DNA of 64,000 bases from the NCBI GenBank assembly GCA_964016885.1, contig OZ024747.1, positions 30,442,001 through 30,506,000 on the forward strand. The letters are read 5' to 3'. Source of the DNA: Eledone cirrhosa (Eukaryota). The first letter of the stretch is position 1, and every line of letters begins with the position of its first letter. The position numbers were made by a program, and so were the translations under genes. Of the stretch, positions 32,901 through 64,000 are shown piece after piece. Under the pieces are notes generated by a model, which was given only the letters and a program-made list of their open reading frames with translations, made no database searches and had not been told where the DNA came from.

Positions 32901-35228
32901 CAAAGAAGTAGCGTCAGAGAAAAATAGAAAGGAGGGGGAGCTTGTAGCTAAGTTAAATGACACTATTTGTAGTGGCATTGCAATGGACATGTTTGCAGCG
33001 AGAATGGCATTAGACCAATTTTTCAATGCAAAACACGAAGGTTGCATTGTCACAGCCAGGGCGTGTGCTCTGAGAAAGCAGGGAACCAAAGCTGTTCGAT
33101 GGGCCCACGTGGCGGAGGTGCAGCATGGTAATAAAACCACAATTTGGTCTATGACGGACTGAGACAGACACAAGATGAGCGATTCCAAGCGGATGAGTGA
33201 GGCTTTCCGTCAGCACTTTGTTTGGTTGTTCGGAGAGAGTGGCGGGTCAGAGATAGTAGCGGACTTCAGTCCCTACCTTGATGGCTGCCACACATCGCGA
33301 TGGCCAATGCTGAGCGCTGCGAAAGGCCGATTACTTCCGCTGAAATTCAGGACACCCTTGTCGGTTGTACGAGGGACAAGTCACCCGGTTTGGATGGCCT
33401 GCCCCACGAGCTTTATGTAAATATGCCAGACTTGTTCTCCAATCTCCTCAAAGTGCTCTACTGCAACTGGCAACAGAGTGGGAGCGGTTACACTGTTAAG
33501 GAAAGACGAGAACAAGAGGGATACCGTACAGAACTTCAGGCCCATAACTCTGCTCAACACAGAGTTTTTGATTTTGGCAAAGGTGTTAGCATAGAGGTTC
33601 AGGCTTGTCATCGGGGATTTGGTTGGGGAGGTGCAAACTTGAGCAATCCTGACCAGGTCCATGCGTTACAACCTCCACCTCATGCAATACATCATAGAGA
33701 GGGTAGGGTGTAAACATGGCTTCGGTGGAGTACTCAATTTGGATCAATTGAAAGCATTCGATAGGGTCGACCATCAGTACCTGGAGGCTGTCCTCAAGGC
33801 AGCTGGCTTTGGCCCTGTCTTCAGAAGTTGGATCACTTCAATGCACAGCGGCATCTGCTCGGTGGTCAAGGTTAATGGCAACCTCTCGGAACCATTTCAG
33901 GTCTCCCGATCAGTCCGTCAAGGGGTCTCTCTCTCTTCCCATCTATATGTATTGACTGTCGAGCCTTAACTGCGCAAATTGCAGCTGTTGCAGGGCATCT
34001 CGCTTGAACCGAGACGCGGAAAAGCTGTGTCGGTTTATGCAGATGACATCACCGTGATGGTGTCGGACACCTGGGTAACAGAGGTGGTCGTCACCTTATT
34101 GGAGGAAAATGAAAGGTTGTCAGGAGCGAAACTTAACCCATCGGTGGGCTTGCAGCAAGTCCAAGCCATCCAACAGCATTGTGGGGCGCTGGATGGACGG
34201 GCTGGTAAAGTTGGTTGGGGTTTGGCTTGGACGAGATCTTCAGGTGGATAAGAATTGGGATGAGGTAATGAGCAGGGTAGCCACCCAGAAATGGGCTGTG
34301 AGGAAGCTATCACTGAAAGGTCGCGCGGAGGTGGCAAATGCGTACATTATGTCCATCATCTACTATCGCCTGACCGACGTGCCTTGCCAAGCTGGAATGG
34401 CTCCTCTTCAAAATCTTGTGGAGGGGACAGGTCCGGTTGGTGATGCATTCCATCTGCTGCCAGCACCCTCTACGTGGAGGGCTGAGGATGCCGTGGCTAA
34501 TGATGCACAGACATGCACTGAGGCTGCGAAATCTCTAAATATTCTGCCTAAACGGTGAACAGGTGTGGTCGCCATTTATCAGATGAGCCAGGGATGATGG
34601 ATAAATTCTAGAGATTCCTCGCTTGGCAGTGCTACCGGGTGGCACTGCCGGTTCAAGATAAACTCTACAGGCACGGATGTGCTGTCAGACAGACCTACCT
34701 GACAAACAGCTGTTGTCACGTGTAGAATGGATCCGGCTATCAGCCAAGTCCATAGTGAAGATTGACCTTCCGTCTTCCTTTGGTCAGGAAGAGCAGGCAA
34801 TTTTCTGTCTGGTGACAGTTGCGAAAGAGGTTGTATGATGGACTGGATTGAAAGGACTGAAGACAGACACTTTTCTCTTTGGCCAATCCCTCATCAAATT
34901 CTTCAAGTTTCACCTGGAAAGGAAGGTGAGGGTGGAGAGAGAAGTGCTTTCCGCCAGTACATTTGCTAAAAGGTGGATGAATGTGGCGAGGATGGCCCAT
35001 GTGAGTGGGCATACTCTGACCATGCGCCTATAGGCTGGTTAATTAGAGGAGGAGGCATGCCTTCCCCGGGTGCCCTAAAAGCGCCGGATGGTTCAGGATT
35101 GGTGGGGTACCTGAGTCACCCCTGGGTTGTCCACCCCCCTATAGGGGAATCTATTTTGTTATATTCATGCATAGTTTATTTTATATTGGTCATGTGGCAG
35201 TCGTTAGAGGGTGAAATATTAGTGTAGT
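29940..35228 (+). mobile_element. Decayed near-full-length Tx1/L1-clade LINE (ORF1 remnant ~30110-32000; ORF2 APE+RT 32036-35033)
   Basis: GSFNVHGL, LAGDWN, YSDH, YWKLN, KSPGLDGLP, FRPITLLN, DQLKAFDRVDH, VRQG, YADDIT, LSLKGRAEVAN. Many frameshifts. Homologous to 43375-47080. Confidence 0.85.
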
Positions 35229-35869: not shown

Positions 35870-36770
35870 TCATTTATAAAGATTATGAAAAGTCTTGGAA
35901 AATATATGCAAACAAAAATTAAATATCTCTTTCTATTTGTTAATAATATTACCAGGATTGGTAATTATATGAAAGATTTCTTCTGTACAAAAATGATAAA
36001 TTTTGGAAATTGAAAAATTTTGGTATGCGGGAGCATCCCTGATTTTATTCCAAGAGATTGAATAATCAGTGTTATTCTCTTTTAAAGACCAAATTAGTTG
36101 TGACAGTGAAGTTGAGAATTTCTTATCAGAGCGTTTAAAAGTATGTTTGTGATTATACCAGCACTCCTTAAATTTTGATGAAGTGGTCTCTATATAATTA
36201 TACAGTTTATCTTTAGTTTTAATTGTGCATTTATATACAAAATTTCGATCTAAGCAATTATTCTCTTGTGGGCAAGAAATATTATTCCTGCAATTACATT
36301 TTCTTATATTGTTACTTGAAGATATGGTACTATTACTCAGGTATACGTTATTATTATTATTGCTAATGTTATTAATTATATTATTATTTTTATTGGCGTT
36401 TATTTCAGTTTGGTTTATTTTTAGATTTCTATTATTAATTTTTGCTATATTCTGGGCTAGATTCATAGTCGTTGAGTAAGAGAGCTTGACTGTATGTCTG
36501 TTAAAAATGCAATGGTATTTGTGGGATTTAGGAAAACATTCATTTAGGAAAACATTCATCTGTGATAAAGATGTCTTAATTCCTAACGATATTGAAGGTG
36601 AATACCAAATTATAGAGTGGGTTCTAGCTTTCCTATGTGATTTATTATTTTGGTTAGCTAGTTTATTTTCTTTATTTTTATAATATACTTTTGCAGGTGG
36701 GTTTTTATTATTCCTATCTATGTAATTAAATTTATTAGTGTATTCAGCTCTGTGTAAAGCGCCATTGAAT
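35870..36770 (-). mobile_element. Naiad-type Penelope-like element 3' fragment (linker + GIY-YIG endonuclease)
   Basis: FPKSHKYHCIFNRHTVKLSYS, CNCRNNISC (CxCx5C), VYKC...YIETT...FKECWYNHKHTF. Confidence 0.85.
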
Positions 36771-37118
36771 GATAATCAACAAACCATATAACTCAATGTT
36801 TATATATATATATTTATATATATATACATACATATATATATAAAATAGTTTAGATGAGTTGATAGCACAACCATATAGAGGCAAACAATAATTAAAAGCT
36901 CAGTTTTGATATTTTATAGTCCACAACAAGATAGATAGAATATATCATCTTAATGGCCGATGACCCTGGAGTTCTGTGTCCTTTCTTTCTATTTTTGTTT
37001 AAAAAAAATAATTTTTAAGGTTTCCCTTAAAAAAATTGTTTTTCGTTTTGCCTTGTTTCCATTCGTAGTTTTGTCCTCTCTTTTTTAATTTTTTAAAGTT
37101 TATATATATATATATATA

Positions 37119-39486
37119 TTTAATTTAATCAAACACCTCAAATTTAAGAGGTATAAATCTAATTTTCAAAAGGATCTTGATTCTACCCTATTGGATCTAA
37201 AAATATCTAAAAAAATCCATGTCCACTCGGACAAAACTGGAAATCTGTATCACATGGATATTGAAAATTACAATGAGTTCATATATAAAGAACTCAGGAA
37301 GAATTATAGAAAAACAAACAATGCGTCACTTACCAACATCAACAACAAAACACACAACATAGTGAATAGACTTAATATTGAAGATAGAACTGAACCTTTG
37401 GCACTGAAAAGACCACATTTCAACCTGAAAGATCATAAATCTAACTTTAACTCTAATCCTTCTATAAGGCTTATATGCCCTTCCAAATCATTAGTAAAAA
37501 TTTTTTAGATAGAGTCATCCCACAACTAAGAAAACATGTTAATTTACCACTCTGGGAAAACACATCCCAGGTAATTAACTGGTTTAATAATATTAGAAAT
37601 AGATCCTCTGCTTCATTTCTACAATTTGATATAGATAATTATTATTCTTCTATATCACCTATACTCCTGAATAAAGCCTTGATATTTGCTAAAAATAGAT
37701 CTAACTTAACTTTGGATGACATTAATATTATTACACATGCCAGACTATTGGAATTTCAAAATGAATACTGGACCAGAAACACATATAGTAATCTATTCGA
37801 TATTACTATGGGCTCAAGCGATTCTGCCCAAATTACTGATCTTGCGGGCCTCTTTCTTATAATAAAAAGCTTATTAGAACTTTCCTTAAAGACTACTATA
37901 GTCTAGATATTACAAGTAAACACAAGTAAAGTAGTTAATTTCCTTGATATAACATTAGACTTATCTACGGGTATCTACCAACCTTACCATAAACCTAACC
38001 AAAATTTACACTACATACACTCACAATCTAATCACCCTAAATCTATCCTTAAAAACCTTACATATAATATATCACTTAGAATTTCTAACCTTTCGTCTAA
38101 CCAGGATGTATTTGATAAAAATGCGACCTTTTATAACGAAGCTCTAGCTAGAAGTGGCCACAAAAATAAATTAGTATATATACCTTGTACCAATAACACT
38201 ACAAACACACAACCTAATATTACCAACAAACACCAAATGAAACATACACACCTAAATGCCACTCACACTATACCCCAAAATACCAACATAAAACCAAATT
38301 TCTCTAACTCTTCTAATATACAATATAGTAACTCTCAAAAAACCACTCATCCTACAACTCTAATAAATGGTAGTAATAAAACTCCTAATAAACAAGCTAA
38401 AACACCTAAATCAATAAATCTAACTAAAAATGTGTGTGGTGAAGTCATCAACAATAATTCTCTTAATAAACATCAGAATACATCCTATAAAAACAATAAA
38501 CAACATCGAAACCGTAATAGACGAGTTACTTGGTATAATGCTCCATTTAATTTACAAATTAAGGATAATATACCTAAAAAATTCTTTAATATCCTAGAGA
38601 AGAACTTCCCACCAAACCACAAATACCATCAAATTTTAAATAGATCAACGGTTAAATTCTCCTAGTCAACAACCAAAAACATAAAACAAAATATAAGTGC
38701 CTACAATGCATATAAATGTAAAAAGACCCATGAGTATACCACCAGTACATCAAACTAACCATAATATCTCCTCGGATACAGGATTCACGAAAAGTTGTAA
38801 CTGTAGAAACAAGGCAAACTGCCCATTAAAAGGAAATTGCCTTGTTAATAACATAGTATATACATGTAAAGTTAACACTAAGGACTCAATTTATTCATAT
38901 ATAGGAGCTACTTCTAACAAATTTAAGGTAAGATTTAATACCCACAAACATAGTTTTAAAAATGCCGCACTAGCTAATACAACATCTCTAGCTGAAATAA
39001 TTAATAATTATAGAAAGAAGAATATAGATTATGACCTGGAGTGTGCTCAAAAGGGCCACCCCTTATCAAAATAATAGATATGAATGTAGATTATGTTCCC
39101 AAGAACTTTTTGAAATAATGAAATCTAAGGATATCCTATTAAATAAGCGACAGGAATTAATAATATCGTGTAATCATAAACTGAGAAAAACCTTTAAATA
39201 TTATAAACCTAATTAATATACATTTTAGAATTTAATATATAAACTGTTTTTAATTTAGTTAACCTATAATTAATATTCTACTACTGATGAACTACATAAT
39301 TTTACTTTCCTTCTTACAACTATCATTTCCTAAAACTGATACCATTAAGTAAACATATATAATGCTTTAATTTCAGGTTATGACTCTATGTTCCTTGAAA
39401 TCTCTATATATTTATTATTTCTCACTAATAAATTTAACCCCCCCTCCCAATAATTATATGTATGTATATGTGTATATATATATGTA

Positions 39487-40557: not shown

Positions 40558-40950
40558 CAAATAAAAGGCAGAGTAAGATACTCATATTAATACCCTGCAA
40601 TTAATAAGCTCTAAGTATAAATACTATATGTATAAATAAACACAGTAAATTGTGTGTGAAAAATTAATCTGTCCAGGAGATTAATAGTTATTGAAACGGT
40701 TAGTACTTCTTATCTTGTATTTTCTATTTGTTTCATAGTTTATATTCATCAAACCAATGTGGTCTTTCAACCCTAGTAAATTTAAACACACAATTTACTT
40801 TGTTTATTTCTACATATATTATATATATAAATATATATTGGTAAACGGAATAGAAAATGCTGACAAATTGTTCACAGTTGAAAAATGGTTTAATTAGGAA
40901 TAAAAGAGTATTAGTGATTGTATGGGTTAGTATTCAGTTGTGGTTTTAAG

Positions 40951-40989
40951 TTTTTACCGGTTGCGCATTTCTAAATGCTTTTCAAAAAT
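40951..40989 (-). ncRNA. Decayed minimal hammerhead (U3-A8 type; GAAA mutated to GCAA)
   Basis: Minus strand reads ttt-TTGAAAA-gcatttagaaatgc-GCAA-ccgg-TA-aaa, the same layout as 55787-55824 with a different but still paired stem II. Confidence 0.55.
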
Positions 40990-41049
40990 AATTTTGAGAT
41001 AGAGTGTCCGTGTTGTTTGCTCTGATCTGATTAGTTTTGGTAATTCTAC

Positions 41050-41298
41050 CTGTTTTTATGTTAAAAAAAGTGGCTCCAGCGTTACTTTGGTGTTGCAAAA
41101 ATTCTTGTGGTCAAAACAATTTTGATTGGTCGGTAGAGGTCATGTGAATGTAAAAAATTGATTTTGCGCCAAGACTGTTTTTATGTTAAAAAAGTGGCTC
41201 CAGCGCTACTTGGTGTTTGCAAAAATTCTTGTGGTCAAAACAATTTTGATTGGTCGGTAGATTGGTCATGTGAATAAAAAATTGGTTTTGCGCCAAGA
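41050..41298. repeat. ~125-bp tandem duplication (2 copies)
   Basis: ctgtttttatgttaaaaaa(a)gtggctccagcg...ttttgcgccaaga at 41050 and 41175. Confidence 0.9.
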
Positions 41299-41323
41299 TT
41301 GAGAAATGACTCTTTCACAACAA

Positions 41324-41362
<39 letters not shown>

Positions 41363-41809
41363 GTGTGTGTAGTAGTAGTAAGGTGTTCGATGTTGTGATA
41401 ATGGTTAGCAGCGATGTGTGTCAAATGGCTATTAAGATAAGTGTGTGTGTGTGTGTGTGTATAACAGAGTAATTCGTGGTGGCAGGGATGGTCAGTAAGA
41501 ATGTGTCTGAAAGCAATGGGGGGTATTTTAGCATGTCAAAAGATATTTTTCAGCTTTTGTCTTATACGGAGAAGTGCGTGTGTGTGTGTGTGTGTGTATA
41601 AGTCTCTTTGTATGTTAATGTACGCGTGTGTATGTGTGTGTGTATATGTGTGTGTGTGTGGGGGTGGACCAGTATTTTTTCCCCCTGGTAAAATGGTGTA
41701 CATTATTCGATTTTTTCAGTAAAATCGGTTCTCTTAATAGAACATCAAAAATCTTAACAATAAAAGGTGTGAAATGATATTCACTATATATATATAGACA
41801 TACATATAT

Positions 41810-41913
<104 letters not shown>

Positions 41914-42039
41914 CACATATATTTGTTAGTGTTGCACCATAGAGCATGTGTGTTTACGTATGTCATTGTGTTTATATGTGGGTAGAGATGTGTGCTGATG
42001 TAGGTATGTATGTTGACGTGAGTATGTTGTGGGTTCGTC

Positions 42040-42263
42040 TTAGGGAGAAGTGTTTAGACGGGGTCCGTATTTGTTAATGAAGTAAGATTCCTTGTTGATG
42101 CGCTGGGTGTGGGTGGCATTATCTTTAAATTTGTAGAGGGGAAAGATTCTGAAGTTGGGATGATTTTGGGCGGCACAGGTATCAATGTGTTCACTCAGTG
42201 GTATTTTCCTGTAATTTGGGATCTATGGACAGTCATGCGTTGGCGGAGGCTGTTTTTGGTCTG
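42040..42263 (-). mobile_element. Penelope-like (Neptune-like) GIY-YIG C-terminal fragment
   Basis: Minus-strand translation with one frameshift: [51 protein letters not shown]. Confidence 0.7.
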
Positions 42264-42963
42264 TATATATATACACACACACACACACACACATGTATTT
42301 GCACCCCCCACCCCCATCCCCCACACACATATTCTCATGCTTACATGTATTGGTATGAGCTTCTCTTTGTATATACTAAGTGCATTTGTGTATATGAATG
42401 TATCACGCAAGCATGGAAAAGCGGATGCAAAAACGATGCTGATGATATGAATCAGGACATAATGTGTATGTATATATATATATATATATTTGTATCCATT
42501 GAAACATCCGTAGATGTATAAATAAATAATAATACTAATCCTTGATCTTACTGAATTTTGAATTATATTCATATATTTATATTTATATATATATGTATAT
42601 ATACACACACATATATATACGCACATGCATATACAGTTCTACATACGCATGAATTTGAATGTGTGCTTATAAGCATATATGTTTCTATGTACAAGTATAT
42701 ATTTATATTTGCAGACATATATATGTATTTTTGTACACAAATGGGTATACATACATTTATGTGTGTGGATACATTTAAATGTATACTAGACCACTCGTCA
42801 CCCGTTGTGTCACATTCACTTTTTTTAAAAAATCATGTTCACTTAAAAATAATTTTTAAATATAATTAAAATATACAGACATATATATAATGTGAAATGA
42901 ATCTGGAAGGCCCATATATAAAGATGTGTGCATGTATATATATATATAAATGTGTGTGTGTAT

Positions 42964-43374: not shown

Positions 43375-46300
43375 AGATATGTTTCTTTTATTTGCCACCA
43401 GGGCATCAAAAGTGGGACAAGTACAATGGGGGAAGTTTACAAAACAAGGCGTCCTCAATAAGGAGGAGGCAATAACAATATATAAAAATAAAATAAAATA
43501 TAACAAAAAATAAAATTTATAACAAAGTCCTCAATTGCACACACCCCCGAAAGAAAGTGTGCAACCCTTTTCCTCAGGAGCACAGAGAAGGGGTGCTCCC
43601 TTGGTCTTTCATCTTCCTCACCTATAGTCTGATGTAGAGTCAAGGCCCATTCACACGGGCCATTCTCGCCACTTTCACCCATCTTTCATAAAAACGGCTG
43701 GGGTGCAGCACCTCTCTCTCCATCCTGATCCTTCTTCCGAAATGATATCGGAAGAAACGGACCAGTTGTTGGCCAGAGAGAAAGGTGTCTGACCTCAGTC
43801 CTTTCAGACGCGTCCACCATACAACCTCTTTCGCCATGGCTATTATGCACAGAAACACTGCCTCTTCTTCGTTTTTGAAGAGGGGAGGCGGCTTGATCGT
43901 TACAATAGACTCGGTGGTCAACCGGATCGGTCCCACCCTTGACAGCAGTTGTTCAAGATAGCCCCACAGATCGGCAATGCCCGAGCAGTGTACCAATCGT
44001 GTGCAACGGTTTCCTCGTCGCACACGCATCTGGGACAGATCTTTTTTGAGGGGTCCCTACCCGGGCGCCCGTGTCTGTAGAGCCTTTCTCAAATGGGCAG
44101 AGCCCTTCTGTAGCATTGTCAGGCCAGGGACCTCTGGAAGTTATCCATGGGTCCCGGGCTGAATGTCCTACCGAACAGGTTGGCTAGTTCGTCTTCCTCC
44201 ATGCCTAGGGCTTCTACGAGAGCGTCGTCGCACCTGCTAACCACCAGCCCTCTATAGAATGACGAGGTGGATTCTCCACTTACAGCCGGGTCCGCCTGCC
44301 AGAGAGCCGTGAGCGCCTGGGCACACTCGGTGTGCCAGGCGCCCAGTTTTCTCGGTCTTTGCTTGACCCAGGATTGCAGCTCGGTGAGTGAGACGAGTCT
44401 GGGAAAGGCTCGCCTCACAAACGGGGCCCACACCGGTTGACCGGAGAGGAATACCTGAAGGTGCCGTAGCCTTAATGCGTGTTTACGTATCATTAGCCAC
44501 GGCATCCCCAGCCCTCCTTTCGAAGGGTGTTGACAGCAGATGGATCGCCTCACCATAGGAGCCCGCTTCTTCCAAAGGAATTGGAAGAGTGCGCGCTCCA
44601 TTTTGGCGAGCGTTTCCCTTGGACAAGGCACAACGGTCAGGCGGTAGTAGATGACGGACGCTATATAAGTGTTCGCCACCTCCGCCCGATCTTTCAGGGA
44701 CAGTTTGCACTCGGCCCACTTCTGGGTCAGTGCAAACACCCTGTTCGTTACCTCACCCCAGTTCTTCTCCACCTGGAGGTCTGGTCCGAACCAGACCCCG
44801 AGCAACTTCACCGGGCCCTCCATCCAGTGCCCGACGACGCCATCGAAGGGCATCGATCTGCCCCTCCACATGCCGAGTTGCAGACCGATCGACTTGTCCC
44901 GATTCAGCTTAGTCCCTGTAAACCTTTCATACTCCTCCAGTAAGGTGCAGATCGCCCCGATTTCCGAGGCCGTTGACACCATTACTGTTACGTCATCGGC
45001 GTAGGCCGACACCGCTTTCCGCAATCCCGGTTCCAACGGGATGCCCTGCAACGACTCCAACTTCCGCAGCAGTGGCTCTAGAGTCACTACATACAGAAGG
45101 GAGGAGAGAGGGCACTCCTGTCGGATGGACCGCGCGATTTCGAACGGCTCCGAGAGGTAGCCGTTCACCTTGACCCTAGAGCAGATGCGGCTGCTGTGCA
45201 TGGCATTGATCCAGCCCCTGAAAACGGGTCCGAAGCCTGCCGCCGCTAGTACCGCATCCAGGTAACCATGGTCGACCCTATCGTATGCCTTAGATTGATC
45301 CAAGTTGATCAGGGCCCCACCAAAGCCGGGTTCGTTCCCAACCCTCTCTATGATGTATCGCATGAGGTGGAGGTTGTCGTGGATGGACCTGGACGGGATA
45401 GCATATGTCTGCGCATCTCCCACCAGGTTGCCCACGACAAGCGCCTACCTCTTTGCTAGCACCTTGGCCAAAATCTGTAACTCTGTATTTAGCAGAGTTA
45501 TGGGCCTGAAATTATTTATATCGTCCCCCTTGTTCTCGTCCTTCCTCACTAGCGTGACTACGCCCTTGGTCACAGCACAGGGAATTCTCCCGTTCTGTTG
45601 CCAGTTGCAGTAAACCGCCTCGAGGAGATCGGGGAACAAATCCGGCATAGCTAGATATAGTTCGTATGGAAGACCATCGAGACCCGGGGATTTGCGTTTG
45701 CCGCATTGGCTCAGCACGTCCTCTATCTCAGCAGCTGAAATCGGCTCCTCGCAGGACTTCGCCTCCCTGTCTGAGAGACGCGGCAGGCCGTCAAGGTATG
45801 GACCGAAGTCCACATCCCCAACCGGCCCCCCGCCCCTTCCGAACAATCCGGCAAAGTGCTTTTGAAAAGCCTTGCACATCTGCTTAGTTTCAAGGATCAT
45901 CCGTCCATCCTGGTCTCGCAAAGACCGGATAGTGGATCTGCTCCCTCTTTTGGCTTCTGTCACGCGGGCCCAGCTAACAGCTTTGGTCTCCTTGTTTCCC
46001 AGAGCACGTATTTTGCTTCGGACGATGCAGCCTTCGTGTTTCGCGTCGAAGAACTGGCCCAGGGCCGTTCTCGATGCTAGCACTCTGGCCACGTCGCCGC
46101 TTCTAATTGCCTCTTCTACACTATCTACCAACTCCCTTTCCTTCCTATTTCTATTTGAGGCTAACTCCTTACTAAATTCTATAGAGACTACTCTAATCTC
46201 TCTTTTGAGAGATCCCCACCACCTGCTGTTGACGATGGCGCCCGTCAACCGCTCCTTAACTAAAGTGCTAATCCGGTCCCTGTAAGCCTTACTTGCCGGT

Positions 46301-47080
46301 AAGGACAAGTTGAGCTTCCAGTAACCGGGTCCCTGTCTATGTGTTCTGTCAAGGTTGACCATGTAGGTCACTAACTTGTGGTCTGAATAGCCAACCATGC
46401 GCATTTTTGGACAACTTAAAAAGTCCTTATCCTTAATTCTAACTAAGAACCTATCTAGGTACGACCTAGATGATCCGCTACGATTTGCCCAAGTCCAGGT
46501 TGGCGCAGTCGGAAAATCTAGTCGATATCTATCGGCCAGGTCAAATCGACCGATTAACCCTTTGAGGCTATTACACCCCTCTCTATCGGGACAGGCCCCT
46601 ACGTAGTCCCAGCGTGCATCTAGGATACCATTCCAGTCCCCCACTAATAGCAAGGAGCGGGACGTCTCTAGAAAAGTCTCCAGACGATGGAAGAAGTCCG
46701 GCCGCATTGACCCGAAAGGGCCGTAGGCGGCTACCAACCTAAACGCTCCGCCTTTACCACTGCCAAGGTCCAGAACCACTAGTCGACCCTCCGGGTCATA
46801 ATGTACCATCTGTGTTGCGAGACCCAGATGTTTTTGCAGCAGAACGTCAACCCCACCCCCACCTCCTTCAGCCATTTTTATCAAAATGAAATTTTTCGAA
46901 AGATTACATTTTTACAACACTATTTCGCCTAAAGGCGTAGAATATTTTGAGAGACTGACCAGATCAAAGTTTGACCTGGCAGTCTCTCTACAAAATGGTA
47001 CAAAAATGAAAGTTTACAGTTCACAATTTCCAGATAAATTTAAACGAAACTTACCGAGCGAGCTCAGCACATGTGTCTAT
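43375..47080 (-). mobile_element. Tx1/L1-clade LINE ORF2 (APE+RT+C-terminal), few lesions, ORF1 absent
   Basis: ORFs 45445-46884, 44119-45435 and 43640-44029: VGDWN, YLDR, YSDH, YWKLN, KSPGLDG, FRPITLLN, KAYDRVDH, YADDVT. AATAAA at 43387-43392(-). Confidence 0.9.
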
Positions 47081-49375: not shown

Positions 49376-49640
49376 CATATATATATATACATTATACACA
49401 ATATATTAATAAATGGAAACTATATTTATAAAACCATATTTATTTTATTATATATATTTCAAGGGCAACCAAGGCAAATTATGGTGCGCTTTCATCAGAT
49501 AAACTACAGATTTGTTTTATAAATAAATATTGACATACCCGGAAAAAAAGACAACCTTAACGGTTGGAGCTTCCTGGATATGAAATTTTTAAGCTTGTTG
49601 AATCCCAACAAATTAAATATAACCTCTGCATATATATATA

Positions 49641-49789: not shown

Positions 49790-52700
49790 CATACATATAC
49801 ACACACACACACACATACTCACACACACATACATTAATAACAATAATAATAATAATAATAATAACAACAATAATAATAAGGCCAACAATAATAATATACA
49901 TATACATATATATATACACACACACGCACACACCTAAGCATATCTACACACACACACACACGATAGCAACTAACAGCGCTGCGATCAAATGTGGCTTTTT
50001 AGCCCAGCCAATGATCTAAAATGTCTTGCACAGAGTGGGCAACCAAAACATTCACTGGGAATAGTCAGCTGTGGTTGGAGTTCGTGTACTTTTGCATGTC
50101 GCTTGAGCCCTCCTGCTGATTTACATTCTCTACCACATGTTTGGCAAGCATGATGAGTAGCATCTCCAACAGCAGCCTGGTAGTCAACCACTGGTCTTAC
50201 TTTATGACTGCGAAGATGACTTTCGAGTCCAGCTTTGCTTAGGCAGAGTCTTGCACATACGCTGCATGTCAGCACCATAGGAGGACCCTCGCGGTCTGGA
50301 AGTGCAACAGCAATGCCCTTCCTCACATCCCGCTTTACTTTCTCGTATGCGATTCGAGATGTCTCAAAGGCAACTTTTCCCTCATATACAGTCTTTCTCC
50401 ATTTATTACGATCAGCAGCAACATTCTCCCATGTATCAGCAGAGATGTTAGCGTCTTTCAGAGAGGCTTTCAAGGAATCCTTATACCTCTTTTTTGGTTT
50501 ATGTGGCGGTCGTTTTCCTTTAACCAACTCTCCATAAAAGAGTTGTTTTGGTATTCTAGAATCCTTCATCCTGGCAAGGTGACCACTCCAACGGAGGCGT
50601 TGCTTAAGCACAAGAACTTCTATACTGTCACACATAGAGCTTTCTAAAATCTCGACATCACTGATGTGGTCCCTCCAGTGAACGCCATGAATCTGTCTGA
50701 GACACATCTGATGGAAACGCTCCAATTGCTTAAGGTGGTGTCGATATGTGACCCAGGTCTCGCAGGCATAAAGAAGACAAGAGAGCACACATGCCCTGTA
50801 CACCTTTACCTTTGTCTTCCTGCATATGTCTCGCCGACCGCAGAGTCGCCTTTCTAGCTTTCCGAAAGCATCACTTGCTTTCCTAATCTTAAGTGAGATT
50901 TCACTGTCAAGGTTGCTGTATCGATTGACAGTGCTTCCCAGGTAGACAAACTGATCAACCACTCCAAGTCGTTTGCCATACACATAGATGTTTGGTTCAG
51001 TGTACTGCTTACCAGGGGCAGGTTGGTACATGACGACGGTTTTCTTGAGACTGACAGTCAGACCTAGGGCCGTGCAAGCGTCAGAAAATGCATTCAAAAT
51101 GTGCTGCATATCACTCTCTGTGTGCGCTACAAGATCGCAATCATCTGCATACAAGAGGTCTCTTATGATTGATGTAAATACTTTTGTCTTCGCAGCAAAG
51201 CGCCTGATGTTAAATATGCTGCCTGAGGTGAGGTTCGATATCGGATGTAAACACCATGCTCGCAATTCCTGAATGCAATACAGAAAACCATTGCAAAGTA
51301 TATGGCAAACAGGGTCGGTGCTGGAATATCCCCCTGTTTCACTCCATTTTTTACTGAGATGTTACCCCCGACATTAACCCAAGCCTTCATGTCGTCATGG
51401 AAAGACCTAACTAAAGCAAGGAACTTATCAGGGCAACCAAGTTTCTGGAGAACCTTCCATAATGCATCTCTGTTAACAGTATCGAAAGCTTTTGTCAGAT
51501 CAACAAAAACCTGATACAGATCCAAGCCTTGTTCCATGCACTTCTCTTGGAGCTGTCTAGCTGAGAAGATCATATCAGTAGTGCTGCGTCCAGCACGAAA
51601 ACCAGATTGACTTTCAGGAAGAACACAATCTGCAATGTGTGTCAGCAGACGGTCCAGAAGCACCCTACATAAAACTTTCCCTACGACAGAAAGCAATGAT
51701 ATACCTCTGTAGTTCTCACAATCGTTCCTGTTACCCTTTCCCTTGTACAAGACCACCATTACTGCATCTCTCCAGTCCTCAGGTACGGATTCATTAGCCC
51801 ATATCCTTCCAAACAAAGAGTGAAGATGCTGCAGGAGTCTCTCACCACCATATTGTAGGAGCTCAGCATGTATGCCATCCATACCTGGAGATCTTCCACT
51901 GTTCAGCTTCGAAATAGCCACTGCAACCTCCACAAGCGTCGGAGGTTCTGCGAGAGCTACTTTCACAGGACTTTCTGGAATGAGATTGAGGAAATCTTCA
52001 CTGACGACAGACGGCTGATTCAAAAGATCATCAAAGTGCTCTCGCCACCTTTGTAGAATTCCTTGTGAGTCACGAAGAAGTTCTTTGCCATCCTTGCTGC
52101 GAAGCGGTGTCACCAGAGAAGAAGACGGTCCATAAACCTCACGCAAGAGACTGTACAACAGCTTTGTGTTATTGGAATCAGACGCAGTTTGTATCTCACC
52201 AGCCTTCTCACTCCACCACTGATCCTTCATCTGAGAAAGACTCCGCCTAACACGTGATTTTACATCCCTGAGTTCCTCATGCAACGTATTCCTCTTCTGT
52301 GGTTTTGCCATCAAGTAGCATGACAGAGCACGCCTCTTATCAGCCAACAAGTCTTCTATATGTACATCATTCTCATTAAACCAGTCCTGATGTTTCCTCT
52401 GCACCAATCCCAGAACACGCCTGCCTACATCATAAACCGACTTTTTAAGGGTCGGCCAATCCTCACCAAGATCTGCAGCCTGCATCTCTTCTTCCAATGT
52501 CCTCTTCACATTTTTATCCTTAAGACGAGCAGCATTCAATCTTTTGGGCAGGGCAACACCAGAAGCCCGGATTTTACGTTTAGTGATTAGTTTCACTTTT
52601 GCGCGTACCAGGCGGTGGTCCGTCCAGCACTCAGCTCCACGAAGAACACGAACACACTGCACATCCTGTCTGTCACGCATCCTGACTAGGACGTAGTCCA

Positions 52701-53534
52701 AAAGATGCCATTCCTTAGATGCAAGATGCATCCATGTGGTCTTGAATTTGTTCTTTTGTTGGAACATGGTGTTGGTAACACACAGATCCAGCTCCTCACA
52801 CATCTGCAGCAGGAGCATACCATTGCTGTTACACTTTCCCACCCCATGCCTTCCGATTACATTCCATGTGTTAAAATCCCTACCCACTCTAGCATTAAAG
52901 TCACCAAGCACAATGACTTTGTCTGCCTGAGGGATATTTCTTAAAACACCTTTCAAGGCATGGTAAAAGGACACCTTTTCCTCATCGACAGAACTCATAG
53001 TTGGAGTATACACACTCACCAGGGTAGCATATCTTCCCTTGTCCAGTGGAACTCTCATGGACATAAGACGCTCACTAATCCCTACTGGGAATTCTTCTAA
53101 TTTGTTCACAAGTACAGTCTTAACAGCAAATCCTTCCCCAGCCTCTCTTCTGGTTCCTTCATCTCTTCCTTTCCAGAAGAATGTATATTCTCCACAAAAT
53201 TCCGTAAGATGACCATCTCCAGATAACCTTGTCTCAGATAAAGCCACGATGTCAAGATCGTAACGTCAAAGCTCCTTTGCAACAAGAGCGGTCCTTCGTT
53301 TAGGACGCTCCAAGGAATCCCTGTCAAGCAGCGTCCGCACGTTCCAGCAGCCAAGACTAAATGCCTTGTTTGGCTCTATTACAATGGCACGATCACGAGC
53401 GGGCCCAGGCTGTGATAACCTGGGGCCCCTGCCCTTATTGCCAATGATCTTTTTTGTTCCAGAACCTAAATTGCCAATTATCTGTTTTATATTGTTCTGG
53501 AACATCATTGAATTGGAAAAAAAAAGTAATAATA

Positions 53535-54186: not shown

Positions 54187-54282
54187 TAGGAAAAAGTATG
54201 GCCCCGACGGCAGAGCTCAAGCCGTTCAGAAATAGCCGTCGAAACGGCTTGAGCTCTGCCGTCGGGGTCATACTTTTTCCTA
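54187..54282. repeat. 40-bp-stem hairpin containing the 3' half of a hammerhead-like motif
   Basis: taggaaaaagtatggccccgacggcagagctcaagccgtt pairs with aacggcttgagctctgccgtcggggtcatactttttccta (one G-T). It contains GAAA-cggc(loop)gccg-TC. Confidence 0.85.
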
Positions 54283-54362
54283 TTTCCCACTCTACTACCC
54301 TAAGTATTGAGTACTCTGGTGCGTTATGGTCCATCTGGTCTCTTACCACTATTCCTTTGTTT

Positions 54363-54396
<34 letters not shown>

Positions 54397-54467
54397 AAGA
54401 AAAAGGGATGAAATCAAAAATGCAACTGAAGTCTTTTTTTTTTAAAAATATATATATTTATTTGGTT

Positions 54468-54505
54468 CCTTTACCGGTTTCGCAGTTCTTCTGCTTTTCA
54501 AAAGG
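54468..54505 (-). ncRNA. Minimal hammerhead, U3-A8 core variant (inverted copy)
   Basis: Exact reverse complement of 55787-55824. Confidence 0.75.
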
Positions 54506-55786
54506 TGAGTTGAGATGGAGGGTCTGTGGTTTTTCTCACATCTGGTTGGTCTCTAAATGTTACTTGTTTTATATGGAAAAACTGGCTCGAAAACCAGGTT
54601 TTTCGAGAAGTAATTTGATTGGTTTGTCAATAATTATAATAAATTTCGCGCCAGTTCGCGTTACAATAGTTCTTCAAATAAGAGAGGGGGGGGGGGGGGG
54701 TTGTCACAGGTTGTTTTTTCATATATGAGGTTTTTCATATATGAGGTTTAATATACATTATGTCAACACCACAATATGACATACACACACACACATAACA
54801 CCTACTTTAGAAAATAAAAACCCGAACTAAATAAACCTTAAACATACGTTTGCACTGGCAATACAACAGCAAACACGAAAAAGTCAGGAAAATATGTTCA
54901 TTCAAAAATATTCCTACTAAAGGAATCATTTTCCTACACACACACATACACACACACAATATATATATATATATATATATATTCTCTTCATCTTAACATG
55001 CTAACCATACTCCCACACACATAACACCCATACACACACATAAAAACCCCCACACCTACAACACCCTCCCCATTTCTACTAATAGAACCACTTTCCTACA
55101 CACATATATATATATACACACACACAAAAAATATATATTCTCTCTATCTAACATACTCGCACACACACACATAACACCCATATACACACACACACAACTC
55201 CCTCCCCCATCTCTACTAATAGAATCATCTTCCAATACACACATACACACACACACACACATATATACACACACACAAGCACACAAATAAACACATATCT
55301 TCAGTCTCAATAGAAAATCTGAACTCTGACACCTGAACTCTGACAGCTGGCCATATTCACTGAACCAGAACATTTCTCCCAATCCCTTTTCCCTTGACCA
55401 CTATCTCTCCATTGTCATAACATTCACTATAGACTACAGAATAGTTTTCCAAATAAGGGCGCAAAAATGTAATGAAAACTTGTTCACGTGACAGCCAAAT
55501 TTCATTTATAACCAACCAAAAAAAAGCCTTCGTGAGCCTCATTTTTTCAAGTAAAAAGAAATTCAAACACTCATATATGAAAAAACAACCTGTGACAACC
55601 CCCCCCTCTCTTATTTGAAGAACTATTGTAACGCGAACTGGCGCGAAATTTATTATAATTATTGACAAACCAATCAAATTACTTCTCGAAAAACCTGGTT
55701 TTCGAGCCAGTTTTTCCATATAAAACAAGTAACATTTAGAGACCAACCAGATGTGAGAAAAACCACAGACCCTCCATCTCAACTCA

Positions 55787-55824
55787 CCTTTTGAAAAGCA
55801 GAAGAACTGCGAAACCGGTAAAGG
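55787..55824 (+). ncRNA. Minimal type I hammerhead, U3-A8 core variant, palindromic stem III
   Basis: cctt-TTGAAAA-gcag(aagaa)ctgc-GAAA-ccgg-TA-aagg. Confidence 0.75.
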
Positions 55825-55955
55825 AACCAAATAAATATATATATTTAAAAAAAAAATAAGACTTCAGTTGCATTTTCGATTTCATCCCTTTTTCTTTATA
55901 CTTCCACTCGTGTAGGACACCTCGGTTATTTTTCATTTTGTAAAAAAAACCTCAC

Positions 55956-55999
<44 letters not shown>

Positions 56000-56099
56000 C
56001 TATATATATATATAGTAATAATAATAAATGTGAAGATTAAAATCCAAAGAGGGCTCGATCAGGATAAATATATATCAAATATATAAGAACCCTACTGCA

Positions 56100-57572
56100 A
56101 ATATTTATGAAAATAACAGATTAAAGTTTAAGCAAAAAATCGCTGCTTTGACCCTTAACGGGGTCTTCTGAAACTAAAAATATCAATCTGTGAGCGCAGA
56201 AGTAAATATTTCGAAAACCCTTGTAACCGAAGGAAAACAGGAAGACGATACTTTGGTTCGTGAAGACGTTCCCTGGCAATGAACGGAAAAAAGTGAAGAT
56301 AATACGTCGTTATGTGGAGCGAGGAGAACAATTACACGCAAAGACAAAACCACGTTTATGGTATAAATGGAGTCATTAGACTAATATTCTATTTAGCAAA
56401 CCGAATGATTCTCGGCTTCAGAGTTAAGAATAGTGTAAATAAAATAGTTGAATGAAAATGACAGGGGTTATTAAAATCTAAAAGTAATAATAATTAAATA
56501 TATACATACACACATCTATATACGTACATACACGTGCATACGCGAAAACACACGCCATGTATGCATATATATGCACGTACACATAAACACGCGCACACAT
56601 ACGTAAACCCGCGCGATAAGACCGTATAAACAAAATACACAAATAAAAATATATATGTGTGTGTATACATATAATTATATAAACGTATATAAATATACAC
56701 ACATAAATACATATAACGCACCCACACACATAACTACAGGTATATATACATGTTCACCGAACGTACATATACCAAACCCAATGTACACATATACACACCC
56801 TACATACGTGCAAACACGCATACAAATATAGAATCACAAACACGAAATACACATATACACATACCAGTATATATAATAGATTCACTTGTAACAAATACAA
56901 GCATATATACGTACGAGAAAGTGTACGTACCTCCACAAAACATACGGGTAAGTTATACTTACCTATACACACATATACATCAAGACGTAAATTATCAGCG
57001 TATTGTTCGTACTATCCGTTAGGGTATAATGTGGGGCTGTAATACAGGAAAGTTTTAGGTAATTTGTGTTTACAAGCCGAAATTGCCTGAGATTCTTTGT
57101 TTAAGATGTGATCATTGGCGTAGAGTATTTCCAGAGCTTCAGCGGCGCAAAGATCTCATGGTTTTTTATTTCTCTTATACGATCTAGCTTTGGCTAGGAT
57201 CTCCCACTGTAACCTATATTGGGTGTGGTTGTCTTTCAGACTCCAGATATAAGCTGAGAGTGACGTCATATTCCTTCTTAAACGGTGAAGAAAGAATGGG
57301 TGTGCATGTAAAGACACTGCTTGAATCTATTGGTGGTTAACCCAATGTAGTCCCTACTAGACATGGGTGTTTCGACCTTACATTTGTAGACAATGTTACT
57401 AGAGAGGCATTTCCCGGATAGAGGGCAGTCAACCCGATTCCTACAATTACAGTTAGTACTAGCTACAGGGTTGCAGGTGTTACTACGGCTAGGTAATTTA
57501 GCTAAATTTGATGTAGTGATGTTATGTGCAAAGTTAGGAGTCGTGGTGTAAGATATTTTAATGGTGTTTCTA
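56100..57572 (-). mobile_element. Naiad-type PLE 3' part: GIY-YIG fragment (57020-57572) plus probable 3' UTR ending in an HHR-like motif
   Basis: TIKISYTT..CNCRNRVDCPLSGKCL..VYKC..YIGLTTNRFK, frameshift near 57285, then TSLSAYIWSLK..WEILAKA..P*DLC..LNK..CKH. Linkage of 56100-57000 is inferred. Confidence 0.75.
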
Positions 57573-58054
57573 CACACATACAGGCACAATTCAAGTACGT
57601 TATACACGTGGAAAAGGCAAGTAGGTAAGACGTACTTGCATAATCATAGTACCGGAGGGCGGGTCGAGATGGGGGTAGGGTTAGGATGGATGGACGGGGG
57701 ATATTTTATCGGGTGGCGTTTTTTTTTAATTGTCCATTAGCTTCAACACTGGCTTAAGATGTTTGTAAGTTTGTGCATGCAATTCGGGCAGTGTTCAAAG
57801 AGTTTGTTCAGTGGCAAATACGTATTTCGTAGCTCTCTGGGTAACAACACTTGTGTCCTCTCATATATAAATATATATATATGTGTGTGTGTGTGTCTGT
57901 ATAAAAAAAATATTTATGTGTGTATACATGTGTGCGTATATGTATATATATGTATGTATATGTACGTATATATATATATGTATATATATATGTGTATATG
58001 TATGTATACATATATATATATGATATATATATGTATATGTATGTGTATGTATAT

Positions 58055-59674: not shown

Positions 59675-60036
59675 CTTGGAACTCTTTTAACCATCTTTTG
59701 ATCTTATATTATTTATACTCCAGTCCTACAAACTGTAGAGTGCTTCTTATCCGATATTTGCATTGCTTTATTGTGCTACAATAAAACTCACCTCCTACAC
59801 ACATATATATATATATATAAATGAAAGTATAGAAATTATATATATATATAGAGAAATTATATATATATATAGAAATTATATATATATATATAAAAGTTAA
59901 TCTGGGTTCAATCGGAGGTAACCACAGTAAGTAAGGTACTCAATACATATCACAGTATAAATGTTTAATATAGAAAAGCTTCTAGAGGACTAGAACTGTT
60001 TCATTCATACTGTGTATATATATATATATATGTATT

Positions 60037-60139
<103 letters not shown>

Positions 60140-61763
60140 GGACCAGAAATACATATAGTAATCTATTCGACATTACTATGGGCTCTAGTAATTCTGCCCA
60201 AATTACCGATCTTGTGAGCCTCTTTCTTCTATTTAACATAAATGCTTCTTTTCGCCACCTTAAAGGTGGTTTATATCGTGATGACTGTCTTCTTCTTTCC
60301 ACTAACCTTAGCCTATCAGAAATTGAAAAAAATAAAAAACTTATTAGAACTTTCCTCAAAGACTATTATAGTCTCACTATTACATTTGAAAACACCAGTG
60401 AAGTAGTAAATTTCCTTGATATAACTTTAGACTTATCTACGGGTATCTACGAACCTTACCATAAACCTAACCAAAACTTACATTACATACACTCACAATC
60501 CAATCACCCTAGATCTATCCTTAAAAACCTAGCATATAATATCTCACTCAGAATTTCTAACCTTTCATCTAACCACGATGTATTCGATAAAAATGCGACC
60601 TTTTATAACGAAGCTTTAGCTAGAAGCGGCCACAAAAACAAATTAGTATATATACCTTGTACCAATAATACTACAAACATACAACCCAATATTACCAACA
60701 AACACCAAATGAAAAATACACACCTAAATGCCACTCACGCTATACCCCAAAATACCAACTTAAAACTTAATATCTCTACCTCTTCTCACATACAATATAA
60801 TAACTTTTAAAAAACCATTCATTCTAATACTCCAATATATGTTAATAACATTACTAACAAAATTCCTAATAATCAGACTAAAACACCTAAATCAGTGAAT
60901 CTAACTAAACATATGTATAATAAATTCACTAATACTAACTCTCTTAGTAAACATCAGGATACATCGTATAAAAAAAAAACAGCATCGAAACCGTAATAGA
61001 CGAGTTACTTGGTATAATGCTCCTTTTAATCTACAAATTAAAGATAATATCCCTAAAAATTTGTTTACTATCATAGAGAAAAACTTCCCGCCAAACCATA
61101 AATACCATCAAATTTTAAATAGATCAACGGTCAAATTCTCCTACTCCACTACCAAAAATATACAACAAAATATAAGTGCCTACAATGCATATAAATGTAA
61201 AATAAACCATGAATATACCACCAACACATCAAACTAACCATAATACTAAAATAAACCACAGTAAACCACCATCTCCTTCACATACAACAAGTCGAGTAAA
61301 TTCCACACCTAATTTGACTAACTCCCCTGATATAATATTCACGAAAGGTTGTAACTGTAGAAACAAAGCAAATTGCCCATTAAAAAGAAATTGCCTTATT
61401 AATAACATAGTATATACATGTAAAATTAGCACTAAGGACTCAACTTATTCATATATAGGAGCTATTTCTAACCAATTTAAAGTAAGATTTAATACCCACA
61501 AACACAGTTTTAAAAATGCCACATTAGCTAATACAACATCCTTGGCTGCAATAATTAATAATTATAGAAAAAAGAATATCGATTATAACCTGACCTGGAG
61601 TGTCCTCAAAAGGGCCACCCCTTATCAAAATAACAGATATGAGTGTAGATTATGTTCCCAGGAACTTTTTGAAATAATGAAATCTAAGGATATCCTATTA
61701 AATAAGCGACAAGAATTTATTATATCGTGCAATCATAGAATTAGAAGAACTTTCAAATATTAT

Positions 61764-61892
61764 TGTTTCTACTTTAGGCACAAGGCCAGCAATTACTCAG
61801 TTCATTACTGGTACTTTATTTTATCGACCCCGTAAGGATGAAAGGCAAAGTTAACCTCGGCGGGATTTGAACTCCGCCGAGGTTAACTTTGG
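61764..61892 (-). mobile_element. 5'-truncated SINE with fold-back end and 20-bp TSD, inside the Naiad ORF end
   Basis: gaagaactttcaaatattat at 61744-61763 and 61893-61912. Confidence 0.9.
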
Positions 61893-63654: not shown

Positions 63655-64000
63655 TAATAGCAACATATATTTATGATTGTTCTGTAGAACAGGAGGTTAA
63701 TTATATGTTTAAATTTTGCCAATGCTCCGATGACTTCAAATGGCTGTTTGGAAGAAACGATTGTCAGCAATGAAATAAAATGTATCGAACATAGTTTTGA
63801 TTGTTTTGAACTTTATATATATATATATGTATATATATATAAAGTTCAAAACAATCAAAACTATGTTCGATACATTTTATTTCATTGCTGACAATCGTTT
63901 CTTCCAAACAGCCATTTGAAGTCATCGGAGCATTGGCAAAATTTAAACATATAATTAACCTCCTGTTCTACAGAACAATCATAAATATATGTTGCTATTA
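63655..64000. repeat. Perfect palindrome (160-bp arms, runs off window) centred on (TA)n; third partial copy at 63125-63180
   Basis: 63655-63814 is the exact reverse complement of 63841-64000. Confidence 0.95.
63720..63772 (+). ncRNA. Hammerhead motif with U4C core (mirror copy 63883-63935 on - strand)
   Basis: caatgct-CCGATGA-cttcaaat(ggct)gtttggaa-GAAA-cgattg-TC-agcaatg. Confidence 0.65.

What the first reader, a model, noticed from the sequence alone, without database searches (positions are those of the whole stretch)
54393..55960. Minimal hammerheads with a compensatory U3-A8 core in an ORF-less inverted-repeat element
Seen: the 38-nt motif cctt-UUGAAAA-gcag/ctgc-GAAA-ccgg-UA-aagg, identical in both arms, and a diverged relative at 40951 with the same UUGAAAA but a different paired stem II. 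Established: C3-G8 is a tertiary Watson-Crick pair and a U3-A8 swap can retain activity; palindromic ACCGGU suggests dimeric cleavage. Inference: a selected natural variant family that CUGANGA searches would miss.
Basis: partly seen in the sequence, partly recalled or inferred. Interest (0 to 1): 0.8.

Follow-up and report, generated by a model that had tools for sequence, protein, structure and literature searches.

The report
Penelope retrotransposon end with variant hammerhead
This is the broken-off end of a common jumping gene (a Penelope-like retrotransposon) carrying two copies of a small RNA motif descended from the hammerhead self-cutting ribozyme; its swapped U-A core pair is real but already in print, and the RNA likely cuts itself only weakly, since a young sister family with over 11,000 copies has also lost another core letter.

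Summary
The motif is real (55787-55824 +, 54505-54468 -), but the element is not an ORF-less family. It is the 3' UTR/pseudo-LTR of a Neptune-type Penelope-like retrotransposon (family A), cut off at the stop codon, plus an inverted truncated copy. Longer copies encode RT and GIY-YIG. Arm identity comes from duplication at insertion.

The genome holds 25,840 U3-A8 motifs against 101 C3-A8, 57 U3-G8 and 0 C3-G8. The singles are neutral decay. Compensation shows between lineages: relatives carry C3-G8 with the same palindrome, and 23 of 23 strict motifs pair at 3-8.

U3-A8 is published for natural hammerheads (PMC3088659) and Penelope elements (PMC4209133), and this scan found it before on other DNA (e1-7786987).

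Few copies break at the predicted cut site. Cleavage is likely weak and dispensable; it is untested. Verdict: new member of a known kind.

The parts
54393..54733 (-). Inverted, 5'-truncated copy of the element's 3' end (pseudo-LTR part), ending at the short 3' terminus without the tail
   Evidence: 96.5% match to 55565-55900; pairwise alignment
54468..54505 (-). Second copy of the U3-A8 minimal hammerhead motif, inside the inverted arm
54715..54749 (+). Inversion junction with a 16-nt direct duplication and microhomology
   Evidence: sequence; template-switch origin is inferred
54744..55961 (+). Last ORF codon and stop (TAA 54749-54751) plus the whole 1.2-kb 3' UTR/pseudo-LTR of family A
   Evidence: 97.6% to L038, whose 775-aa frame holds RVT_1 and GIY-YIG
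55787..55824 (+). Minimal type I hammerhead motif: stem I 55787-90/55821-24, U3 55791, A8 55796, stem II 55798-55810, GAAA 55811-14, palindrome ACCGGU 55814-19, predicted cut after A17 (55820)
   Evidence: cleavage not tested
55901..55961 (+). Tail of about 60 nt, on one end only; in 5'-complete copies it continues into the 5' region of ORF1
   Evidence: two 3' end classes: 51 tail, 35 short, 8 other of 94 ends; L111, L115 and L297 run on into ORF1
54360..54392 (.). (TA)n target microsatellite, left flank
55962..56015 (.). (TA)n target microsatellite, right flank
   Evidence: 82 of 94 family A ends abut TA repeats
40801..42281 (-). Truncated copy of sister family B: GIY-YIG fragment at 42052-42281 followed by 3' UTR/pseudo-LTR
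   Evidence: tblastn; 84.8% to natural full unit L294 over 1,526 columns
40951..40988 (-). Family B motif: U3-A8 plus A13C (40963), stem II GCAU/AUGC, 3-bp A-U stem I
   Evidence: 11,416 such motifs genome-wide

Best explanation
The locus is a 5'-truncated copy of a Penelope-like retrotransposon joined to an inverted copy of its own 3' end inside a (TA)n repeat, and the motif is that element's pseudo-LTR hammerhead with a compensatory U3-A8 pair, predicted to cut only weakly and only as a dimer. Shown: longer copies encode RT plus a C-terminal GIY-YIG with a CX4CxxC linker; the motif sits in the repeat that both precedes ORF1 and follows the RT-EN ORF; relatives hold C3-G8 in the same place; positions 3 and 8 change together between lineages. 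Inferred: U3-A8 arose once in the ancestor of families A, B and C. Inferred: in a tandem transcript, or between two RNAs, the ACCGGU palindromes would pair to build stem III and allow slow cleavage after A17. Inferred: reverse transcription starts at two sites about 60 nt apart, giving the one-sided tail, and a template switch gives the inverted arm. Inferred: cleavage is not needed for insertion, so the core can erode (A13C in B, near loss of stem I in C). This copy is likely inert: its motifs are on opposite strands, and a read-through RNA is predicted to bury them in one long hairpin.
For: RT-EN frames in 14 of 15 loci picked for upstream extension; Pfam RVT_1 E 1.3e-6 and GIY-YIG E 3e-6; PLE motifs. 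Direct pLTR-ORF1-RT/EN-pLTR unit in L294; 23 inverted and 2 direct pairs among the first 100 listed motifs. C3-G8 with the same ACCGGU in L180, L181, L187 (read by eye) and C3-G8 in same-genome family E. Watson-Crick 3-8 pair in 23 of 23 distinct strict motifs from 80 loci, with no pairing demanded, against 0.6 hits per shuffled set. Covariation score 0.805 vs 0.219 shuffled and at most 0.162 slid. A, B, C in one clade, 100/99. Dimer -20.3 vs monomer -6.4 kcal/mol; whole-element fold pairs the two motifs with each other. Literature: PMC4209133, PMC8557442, PMC11167929 (hammerhead mutants still insert in vitro; tail lies between two RT start sites).
Against: No cleavage or expression data. The RVT_1 score (28.7) is just under Pfam's cut-off (29.6). 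55 of 80 related loci gave no strict motif, and 5 close relatives were read by eye. Rows are related, and 60 of 500 shuffles reached the pair-type count. Against activity: a full double-mutant scan of a type III hammerhead rescued only G3-C8 (PMC9901934); stem I probability falls from 0.7 in the bare motif to 0.18 with 60-nt flanks and 0.01 with 150-nt flanks; the A2 subfamily loses the outer stem I pair. The hammerhead state of the nearest proteins (P0001-P0010) is unknown, so a single origin is not proven. Family D has no protein placed on the tree.
Confidence: 0.88

Rival explanations
1. In this lineage the motif is no longer a ribozyme. It is kept as a non-catalytic signal: the stem II hairpin and ACCGGU palindrome would pair two element RNAs or bind the RT-EN protein, which could favour two-copy inverted insertions.
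For: A13C is fixed in 11,416 motifs of a young family with unbroken 774-784 aa frames, 97.5-98.1% identical. A13 mutants are 10-100-fold down (PMC4075628 citing Ruffner 1990). Family C keeps 1-2 stem I pairs yet retains the palindrome. Only 248 copies are broken at or next to the cut site against about 14,400 intact family A motifs, while 19 of 40 A and 8 of 16 B motifs have their 5' end 32-47 nt upstream of an intact motif.
Against: U4, G5, A6, A9, G12, A14 and the 3-8 pair stay fixed across families about 55% identical in protein while N7 varies. Family D keeps a covarying 4-bp stem I. Inverted insertions also occur in Naiads, which lack canonical hammerheads (PMC8557442). Templates that inserted must be uncut even if a fraction of RNA is cut.
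Confidence: 0.2
2. All these variants, including A13C, are efficient ribozymes in vivo because the element's protein or a host factor chaperones the fold; cleavage processes the transcript for translation or turnover.
For: The Anolis PLE hammerhead cleaves only when its protein is added (PMC11167929). The cut site lies 168 nt upstream of the ORF1 ATG in L297. The core is conserved across families.
Against: No large genomic footprint of cut templates. Low in vitro activity is reported for metazoan minimal PLE hammerheads. A13C and stem I loss are tolerated.
Confidence: 0.15
3. The locus is a non-autonomous inverted-repeat element (MITE-like or retrozyme-like) mobilised as a unit, with the hammerhead-like motif as chance or cargo.
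For: Long inverted arms, no ORF in this copy, and no Rfam hammerhead match.
Against: Only 5 of 30 best-matching loci have both orientations within 1.5 kb. Spacing of inverted pairs ranges from 50 to 5,432 nt. The tail is one-sided, there is no tandem array, and the interior is the 3' UTR of an RT-EN element.
Confidence: 0.02

Closest known systems
Minimal type I hammerheads in Penelope-like element pLTRs, including the U3-A8 variant of Schistosoma mansoni Cercyon elements (Cervera & De la Pena 2014, PMC4209133)
   Same: Position in the pLTR, short stem I, palindromic stem III needing a dimer, G10.1-C11.1, U3-A8 core, pairs on opposite strands in truncated copies
   Different: At least 25,840 motifs against about 1,300 reported there; 4-bp stem II with no extra base between 9 and 10.1 in A and B; A17; a sub-lineage with A13C
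Natural U3-A8 hammerhead core variants (Perreault et al. 2011, PMC3088659)
   Same: Compensatory 3-8 swap seen in nature and stated to be active in vitro (their reference 32, which I could not read)
   Different: Here the motif is minimal, with no predicted loop-loop contact; A13C is not among the variants named in the section read
Neptune/Nematis-type EN+ Penelope-like elements (Craig et al. 2021, PMC8557442)
   Same: RT with C-terminal GIY-YIG, CX2-5CxxC linker, tandem and inverted pLTRs, one-sided tail, microsatellite targets; an ORF1 frameshift is listed for PLEs in the figure 1 legend
   Different: Tail about 60 nt rather than 30-40; clade not fixed against reference Neptune or Nematis sequences
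Poseidon element of Anolis carolinensis (Frangieh et al. 2024, PMC11167929)
   Same: Two RT start sites explain a one-sided tail; hammerhead cleavage dispensable for insertion in vitro
   Different: Canonical C3-G8 core that overlaps the ORF start; single ORF
Non-LTR retrozymes (bioRxiv 10.64898/2026.07.22.740005, first fifth read)
   Same: Type I hammerhead in PLE-derived non-coding repeats
   Different: Retrozymes are head-to-tail tandem arrays; this is an inverted truncation product of an autonomous family

Membership tests
EN+ Penelope-like element | RT with C-terminal GIY-YIG endonuclease | tested here: met
   In sister copy L038, 97.6% identical to the window copy's sense part; GIY-YIG above the Pfam cut-off, RVT_1 0.9 bit under; GxKF, DKG, YLDD present
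EN+ Penelope-like element | Direct pseudo-LTRs around the ORF | tested here: met
   L294 (family B): two same-strand motifs 4,805 nt apart around ORF1 and RT-EN; family A motif found both upstream of ORF1 (L297) and downstream of RT-EN (L038)
EN+ Penelope-like element | 5' truncation with inverted copy and one-sided tail | tested here: met
   23 inverted pairs among the first 100 listed motifs; 51 tail, 35 short, 8 other of 94 ends
Neptune/Nematis clades | CX2-5CxxC linker before GIY-YIG; microsatellite target bias | tested here: met
   CX4CxxC in A and B; 82 of 94 ends abut (TA)n
Neptune/Nematis clades | Placement with named reference elements in an RT tree | not tested
   No named reference sequences were held; the trees use unnamed relatives
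Minimal type I hammerhead | Canonical core C3 U4 G5 A6 N7 G8 A9 G12 A13 A14 A15 U16 H17 | tested here: not met
   Family A differs at 3 and 8 (a published compensatory variant); family B also at 13
Minimal type I hammerhead | Watson-Crick pair between positions 3 and 8 | tested here: met
   U-A in A-D, C-G in relatives; 8 of 8; 23 of 23
Minimal type I hammerhead | Covarying stems I and II | tested here: met
   All 4 stem I pairs and 2 of 3 stem II pairs have two-sided changes; stem I is weak in B and nearly lost in C
Minimal type I hammerhead | Palindromic stem III for dimer formation | tested here: met
   ACCGGU; predicted duplex -10.3 kcal/mol; ACAUGU, ACGCGU, AGUACU in relatives
Minimal type I hammerhead | Match to an Rfam hammerhead model | tested here: not met
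   None at E up to 5 in the window or E up to 10 in 55700-55900
Minimal type I hammerhead | Site-specific self-cleavage after H17 | not testable with these tools
   Needs a bench assay
Non-LTR retrozyme | Head-to-tail tandem units each with a hammerhead, no coding partner | tested here: not met
   2 direct pairs among 100 listed motifs, both spanning coding sequence
MITE / foldback DNA transposon | Fixed terminal inverted repeats shared by copies | tested here: not met
   Arm length and junction vary between loci

The most novel reading that the evidence does not exclude
A very successful Penelope lineage is turning its hammerhead from a ribozyme into a non-catalytic RNA-pairing signal: U3-A8 first, then A13C in family B and loss of stem I in family C, while the stem II hairpin and ACCGGU palindrome persist to dimerise two element RNAs and drive two-copy inverted insertions.
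Probability: 0.15. Interest if true: 0.7.

Novelty: new member of a known kind. Interest (0 to 1): 0.33.

Why it matters
The finding as posed (a natural U3-A8 hammerhead family that CUGANGA searches miss) is already in print. What this genome adds is scale and a natural series. Related families carry C3-G8 (E), U3-A8 (A, D), U3-A8 with A13C (B) and U3-A8 with a nearly lost stem I (C). A and B have thousands of copies and unbroken RT-EN frames. The role of hammerheads in these elements is called unclear in PMC8557442. This series allows a direct test of whether cleavage or only the RNA fold matters. A3-U8 and G3-C8 examples in other Penelope relatives (single loci) suggest that descriptors should allow any Watson-Crick pair at 3-8.

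Tried and rejected
Rfam: no hammerhead match; the microRNA hits are simple-repeat artefacts.

Within-family covariation at 3-8: none (0 doubles, 0.22 expected), and uninformative for dead copies. A flank-rate comparison on 11 copies (T>C 3 of 218, A>G 7 of 390) hinted at lower variation at 3 and 8. I set it aside because the genome-wide control at position 7 (75 vs 57) showed no difference.

A search for a canonical-core sister with an ASS-type palindrome in this genome gave 28 hits against 152 in the reversed control, so no family. The pattern with an extra base gave 75 hits against 90 in control, but its listing showed repeated strings that led to families C and D.

The first tree did not finish. 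In the FastTree run family C was misplaced by short fragments, so I rebuilt it with longer natural stretches.

Expression: no RNA holder listed. Contigs of four runs showed no listed variant at 55788-55846; this is too weak to count.

The exact junction positions of the 248 copies were not resolved, so a small peak at the cut site is not excluded.

Papers not held: Lunse 2017 on PLE hammerhead variants, Przybilski & Hammann 2007 (54), Nelson & Uhlenbeck 2008 (55), Scott 2013 (84). A13C could be described in Lunse 2017. Searches 'hammerhead'+'A13C' and 'Penelope-like'+'Neptune'+'ribosomal frameshift' gave 0 papers. The frameshift is nonetheless known. Supplement file 1 of PMC4209133 could not be searched and may hold further variants.

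Full report
Observation. A scan of both strands for type I hammerhead topology found the motif at 55787-55824 (+) and 54505-54468 (-), plus one weak unrelated hit at 49503. The arms are 99% complementary over 258 nt and align over about 340 nt, so identity of the 38-mer in both arms is a by-product. The relative at 40988-40951 (-) has UUGAAAA and a GCAU/AUGC stem, but reads GCAA where a hammerhead has GAAA. Rfam gives no hammerhead match.

What the element is. A DNA search of the 3.0-Gb own genome scored 40 of 1,170 candidates and listed 41 matches, nearly all 99-100% identical. Only 5 of the 30 loci have the motif in both orientations within 1.5 kb. Of 15 loci chosen because they extend upstream, 14 carry frames of one RT-endonuclease protein. 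L038 has a 775-aa frame with RVT_1 (E 1.3e-6, just under cut-off) and GIY-YIG (E 3e-6), and with GxKF, DKG, YLDD and a CX4CxxC linker. The window's sense part matches L038 at 97.6% from the ORF's last codon onward. So the window copy is the whole 3' UTR/pseudo-LTR of a Penelope-like element (family A), preceded by an inverted truncated copy of its end, inside (TA)n. Family A has two 3' ends about 60 nt apart: 51 tail, 35 short and 8 other among 94 ends, of which 82 abut TA repeats. In L111, L115 and L297 the tail runs on into ORF1, with the ATG 168 nt after the predicted cut site. Among the first 100 listed motifs, 23 inverted pairs (50-5,432 nt apart) and 2 direct pairs occur; L294 is a natural pLTR-ORF1-RT/EN-pLTR unit. 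These traits match those given for Penelope-like elements in PMC8557442 (passages), and the tail matches the two RT start sites shown in PMC11167929 (part 1 of 4 and passages). The linker points to the Neptune/Nematis type; I did not test this against named references.

Copy numbers and the 3-8 pair. With one fixed pattern frame the genome holds 25,840 U3-A8 motifs (reversed control 0), 101 C3-A8, 57 U3-G8 and 0 C3-G8 (0.22 expected). A7G, at the free position, occurs 75 times, not different from A8G (p=0.14). Within-family variation is thus neutral decay and cannot test compensation. Between lineages it can. A metagenome scan returned 80 related loci. A strict search that did not demand 3-8 pairing found 23 distinct motifs in 25 of them: 17 C-G, 4 U-A, 1 A-U, 1 G-C and no mismatch, against 0.6 hits per shuffled set. 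55 loci gave no strict hit, and a few hits lie inside an ORF match or on the other strand (L195, L207, L233, L249). The closest relatives, read by eye, have C3-G8 with the same ACCGGU (L180, L181, L187) or another palindrome (L183; L182 is in the strict set). Family E in the same genome has C3-G8 too. Over 30 lineage-level motifs all 30 pair, against a mean of 18.5 in 200,000 shuffles, none reaching 30 (rows are not independent). On an 8-row alignment, 89.8% of cells pair, the covariation score is 0.805 against 0.219 shuffled and at most 0.162 slid, and all four stem I pairs change on both sides; the pair-type count is reached by 60 of 500 shuffles. In the ML tree A, B and C fall in one clade (100/99, with proteins whose DNA I could not see), B and C are sisters (100/100), and all C3-G8 rows lie outside (25 rows, four under half filled, long-branch outgroups). 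FastTree puts other U-A cases beside C-G sisters (L215 with L219, L228 with L232), so the swap recurs.

Known or new. PMC3088659 (section 8) reports U3-A8 in several natural hammerheads. PMC4209133 (parts 1-2 of 4) reports it in Schistosoma Penelope pLTRs (about 1,300 hits), with palindromic stem III, dimer action, low in vitro activity and pairs on opposite strands.

A13C is fixed in family B: 11,416 of the 25,840 motifs. B is young and autonomous: three natural copies have unbroken 774-784 aa frames, 97.5-98.1% identical. C, its sister, keeps A13, so A13C is derived, but C keeps only 1-2 stem I pairs. D keeps a covarying 4-bp stem I; no protein was found beside D. A13 changes cost 10-100-fold (PMC4075628, part 1 of 2, citing Ruffner 1990). 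I found no paper with 'hammerhead' and 'A13C' and no A13 variant in the passages beyond two sporadic cricket copies, but Lunse 2017 was not held.

Mechanism. The bare family A motif folds stems I and II (-6.4 kcal/mol), and two copies pair through the palindrome (-20.3). Stem I is unstable in context (probability 0.18 with 60-nt flanks, 0.01 with 150-nt flanks). At this locus a read-through RNA is predicted to pair the two motifs with each other in a long hairpin, so this copy is likely inert. For the family, weak dimer cleavage after A17 is the inferred default. Against strong activity: only G3-C8 was rescued in a full double-mutant scan of a type III hammerhead (PMC9901934, passages), although PMC3088659 states that covarying 3-8 pairs were shown active in vitro. 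Genomic footprints suggest uncut templates. Only 248 copies (control 2) are broken at or next to the cut site, against about 14,400 intact family A motifs. By contrast 19 of 40 A motifs and 8 of 16 B motifs end 32-47 nt upstream of an intact motif (counted; two duplicate rows dropped; both arms of a fold-back counted). That hot spot is likely the RNA's 5' end or an RT stall (inference). This agrees with PMC11167929, where hammerhead mutants still insert in vitro. It does not show that the RNA is never cut.

Verdict. Observation partly confirmed; interpretation partly supported; a new member of a known kind. Confidence that it is a Penelope pLTR hammerhead homologue is about 0.9. That family A cleaves detectably as a dimer I put at about 0.55 (judgement). 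The residual interest is the natural series E, A, B, C, D as a test of whether these elements need cleavage. Hammerhead numbering is recalled and agrees with the core list. The host looks like an octopod from a recalled SINE motif; I did not test that.

Noticed in passing
L038 4289-4376 (-); L259 2648; L265 3292; L187 549; L180 1330: ORF1 overlaps the RT-EN frame with a conserved U UUU UUA heptamer in the right frame for a -1 ribosomal frameshift in families A and B and two metagenome relatives; an ORF1 frameshift is already listed for PLEs.
   Followed up: partly
window 55748-55759 and equivalent positions in L071-L120: Hot spot of 5' ends and fold-back junctions 32-47 nt upstream of U3 in families A and B, giving many short palindromic insertions about 110 nt between motifs; may mark the transcription start.
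   Followed up: partly
L225 1969 (+); L229 117 (+): Hammerhead motifs beside Penelope-like RT genes with A3-U8 and G3-C8 cores, so all four Watson-Crick pairs occur at 3-8; single loci only.
   Followed up: no
L189, about 250 nt after the ORF end: Extremely reduced motif: CUGAAGA and GAAA separated by three bases, 6-bp stem I, palindromic stem III, no stem II (read by eye).
   Followed up: no
L278 downstream of 6371 (-); L029/L038; many loci: The same genome holds canonical C3-G8 minimal hammerheads in other repeats, including family E (about 50% protein identity to A).
   Followed up: partly
window 35933-39074, 57278-57643, 59986-61835: Fragments of other Penelope-like RT and GIY-YIG frames, with no tblastn match to family A; clade not determined.
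   Followed up: no
window 58417-58617/59498-59698 and 2372-2540/2546-2714: Further inverted-repeat insertions whose arms hold a CUGAUGA or similar half-core; possibly ends of another Penelope-like family.
   Followed up: no
window 54189-54281: A palindromic element of about 90 nt just left of the locus; also inverted repeats at 22450-23331 and 63655-64000.
   Followed up: no
P0012, P0037, P0042, P0057: Proteins 45-50% identical to the family A RT-EN are filed under bacterial gill symbionts; likely host DNA in those assemblies (inference).
   Followed up: no
window 758-2023, 32027-34558, 43640-46911, 49985-53265: Decayed LINE-type RT and AP-endonuclease frames (family labels not tested) and a repeated SINE-like sequence (families D19-D20).
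   Followed up: no
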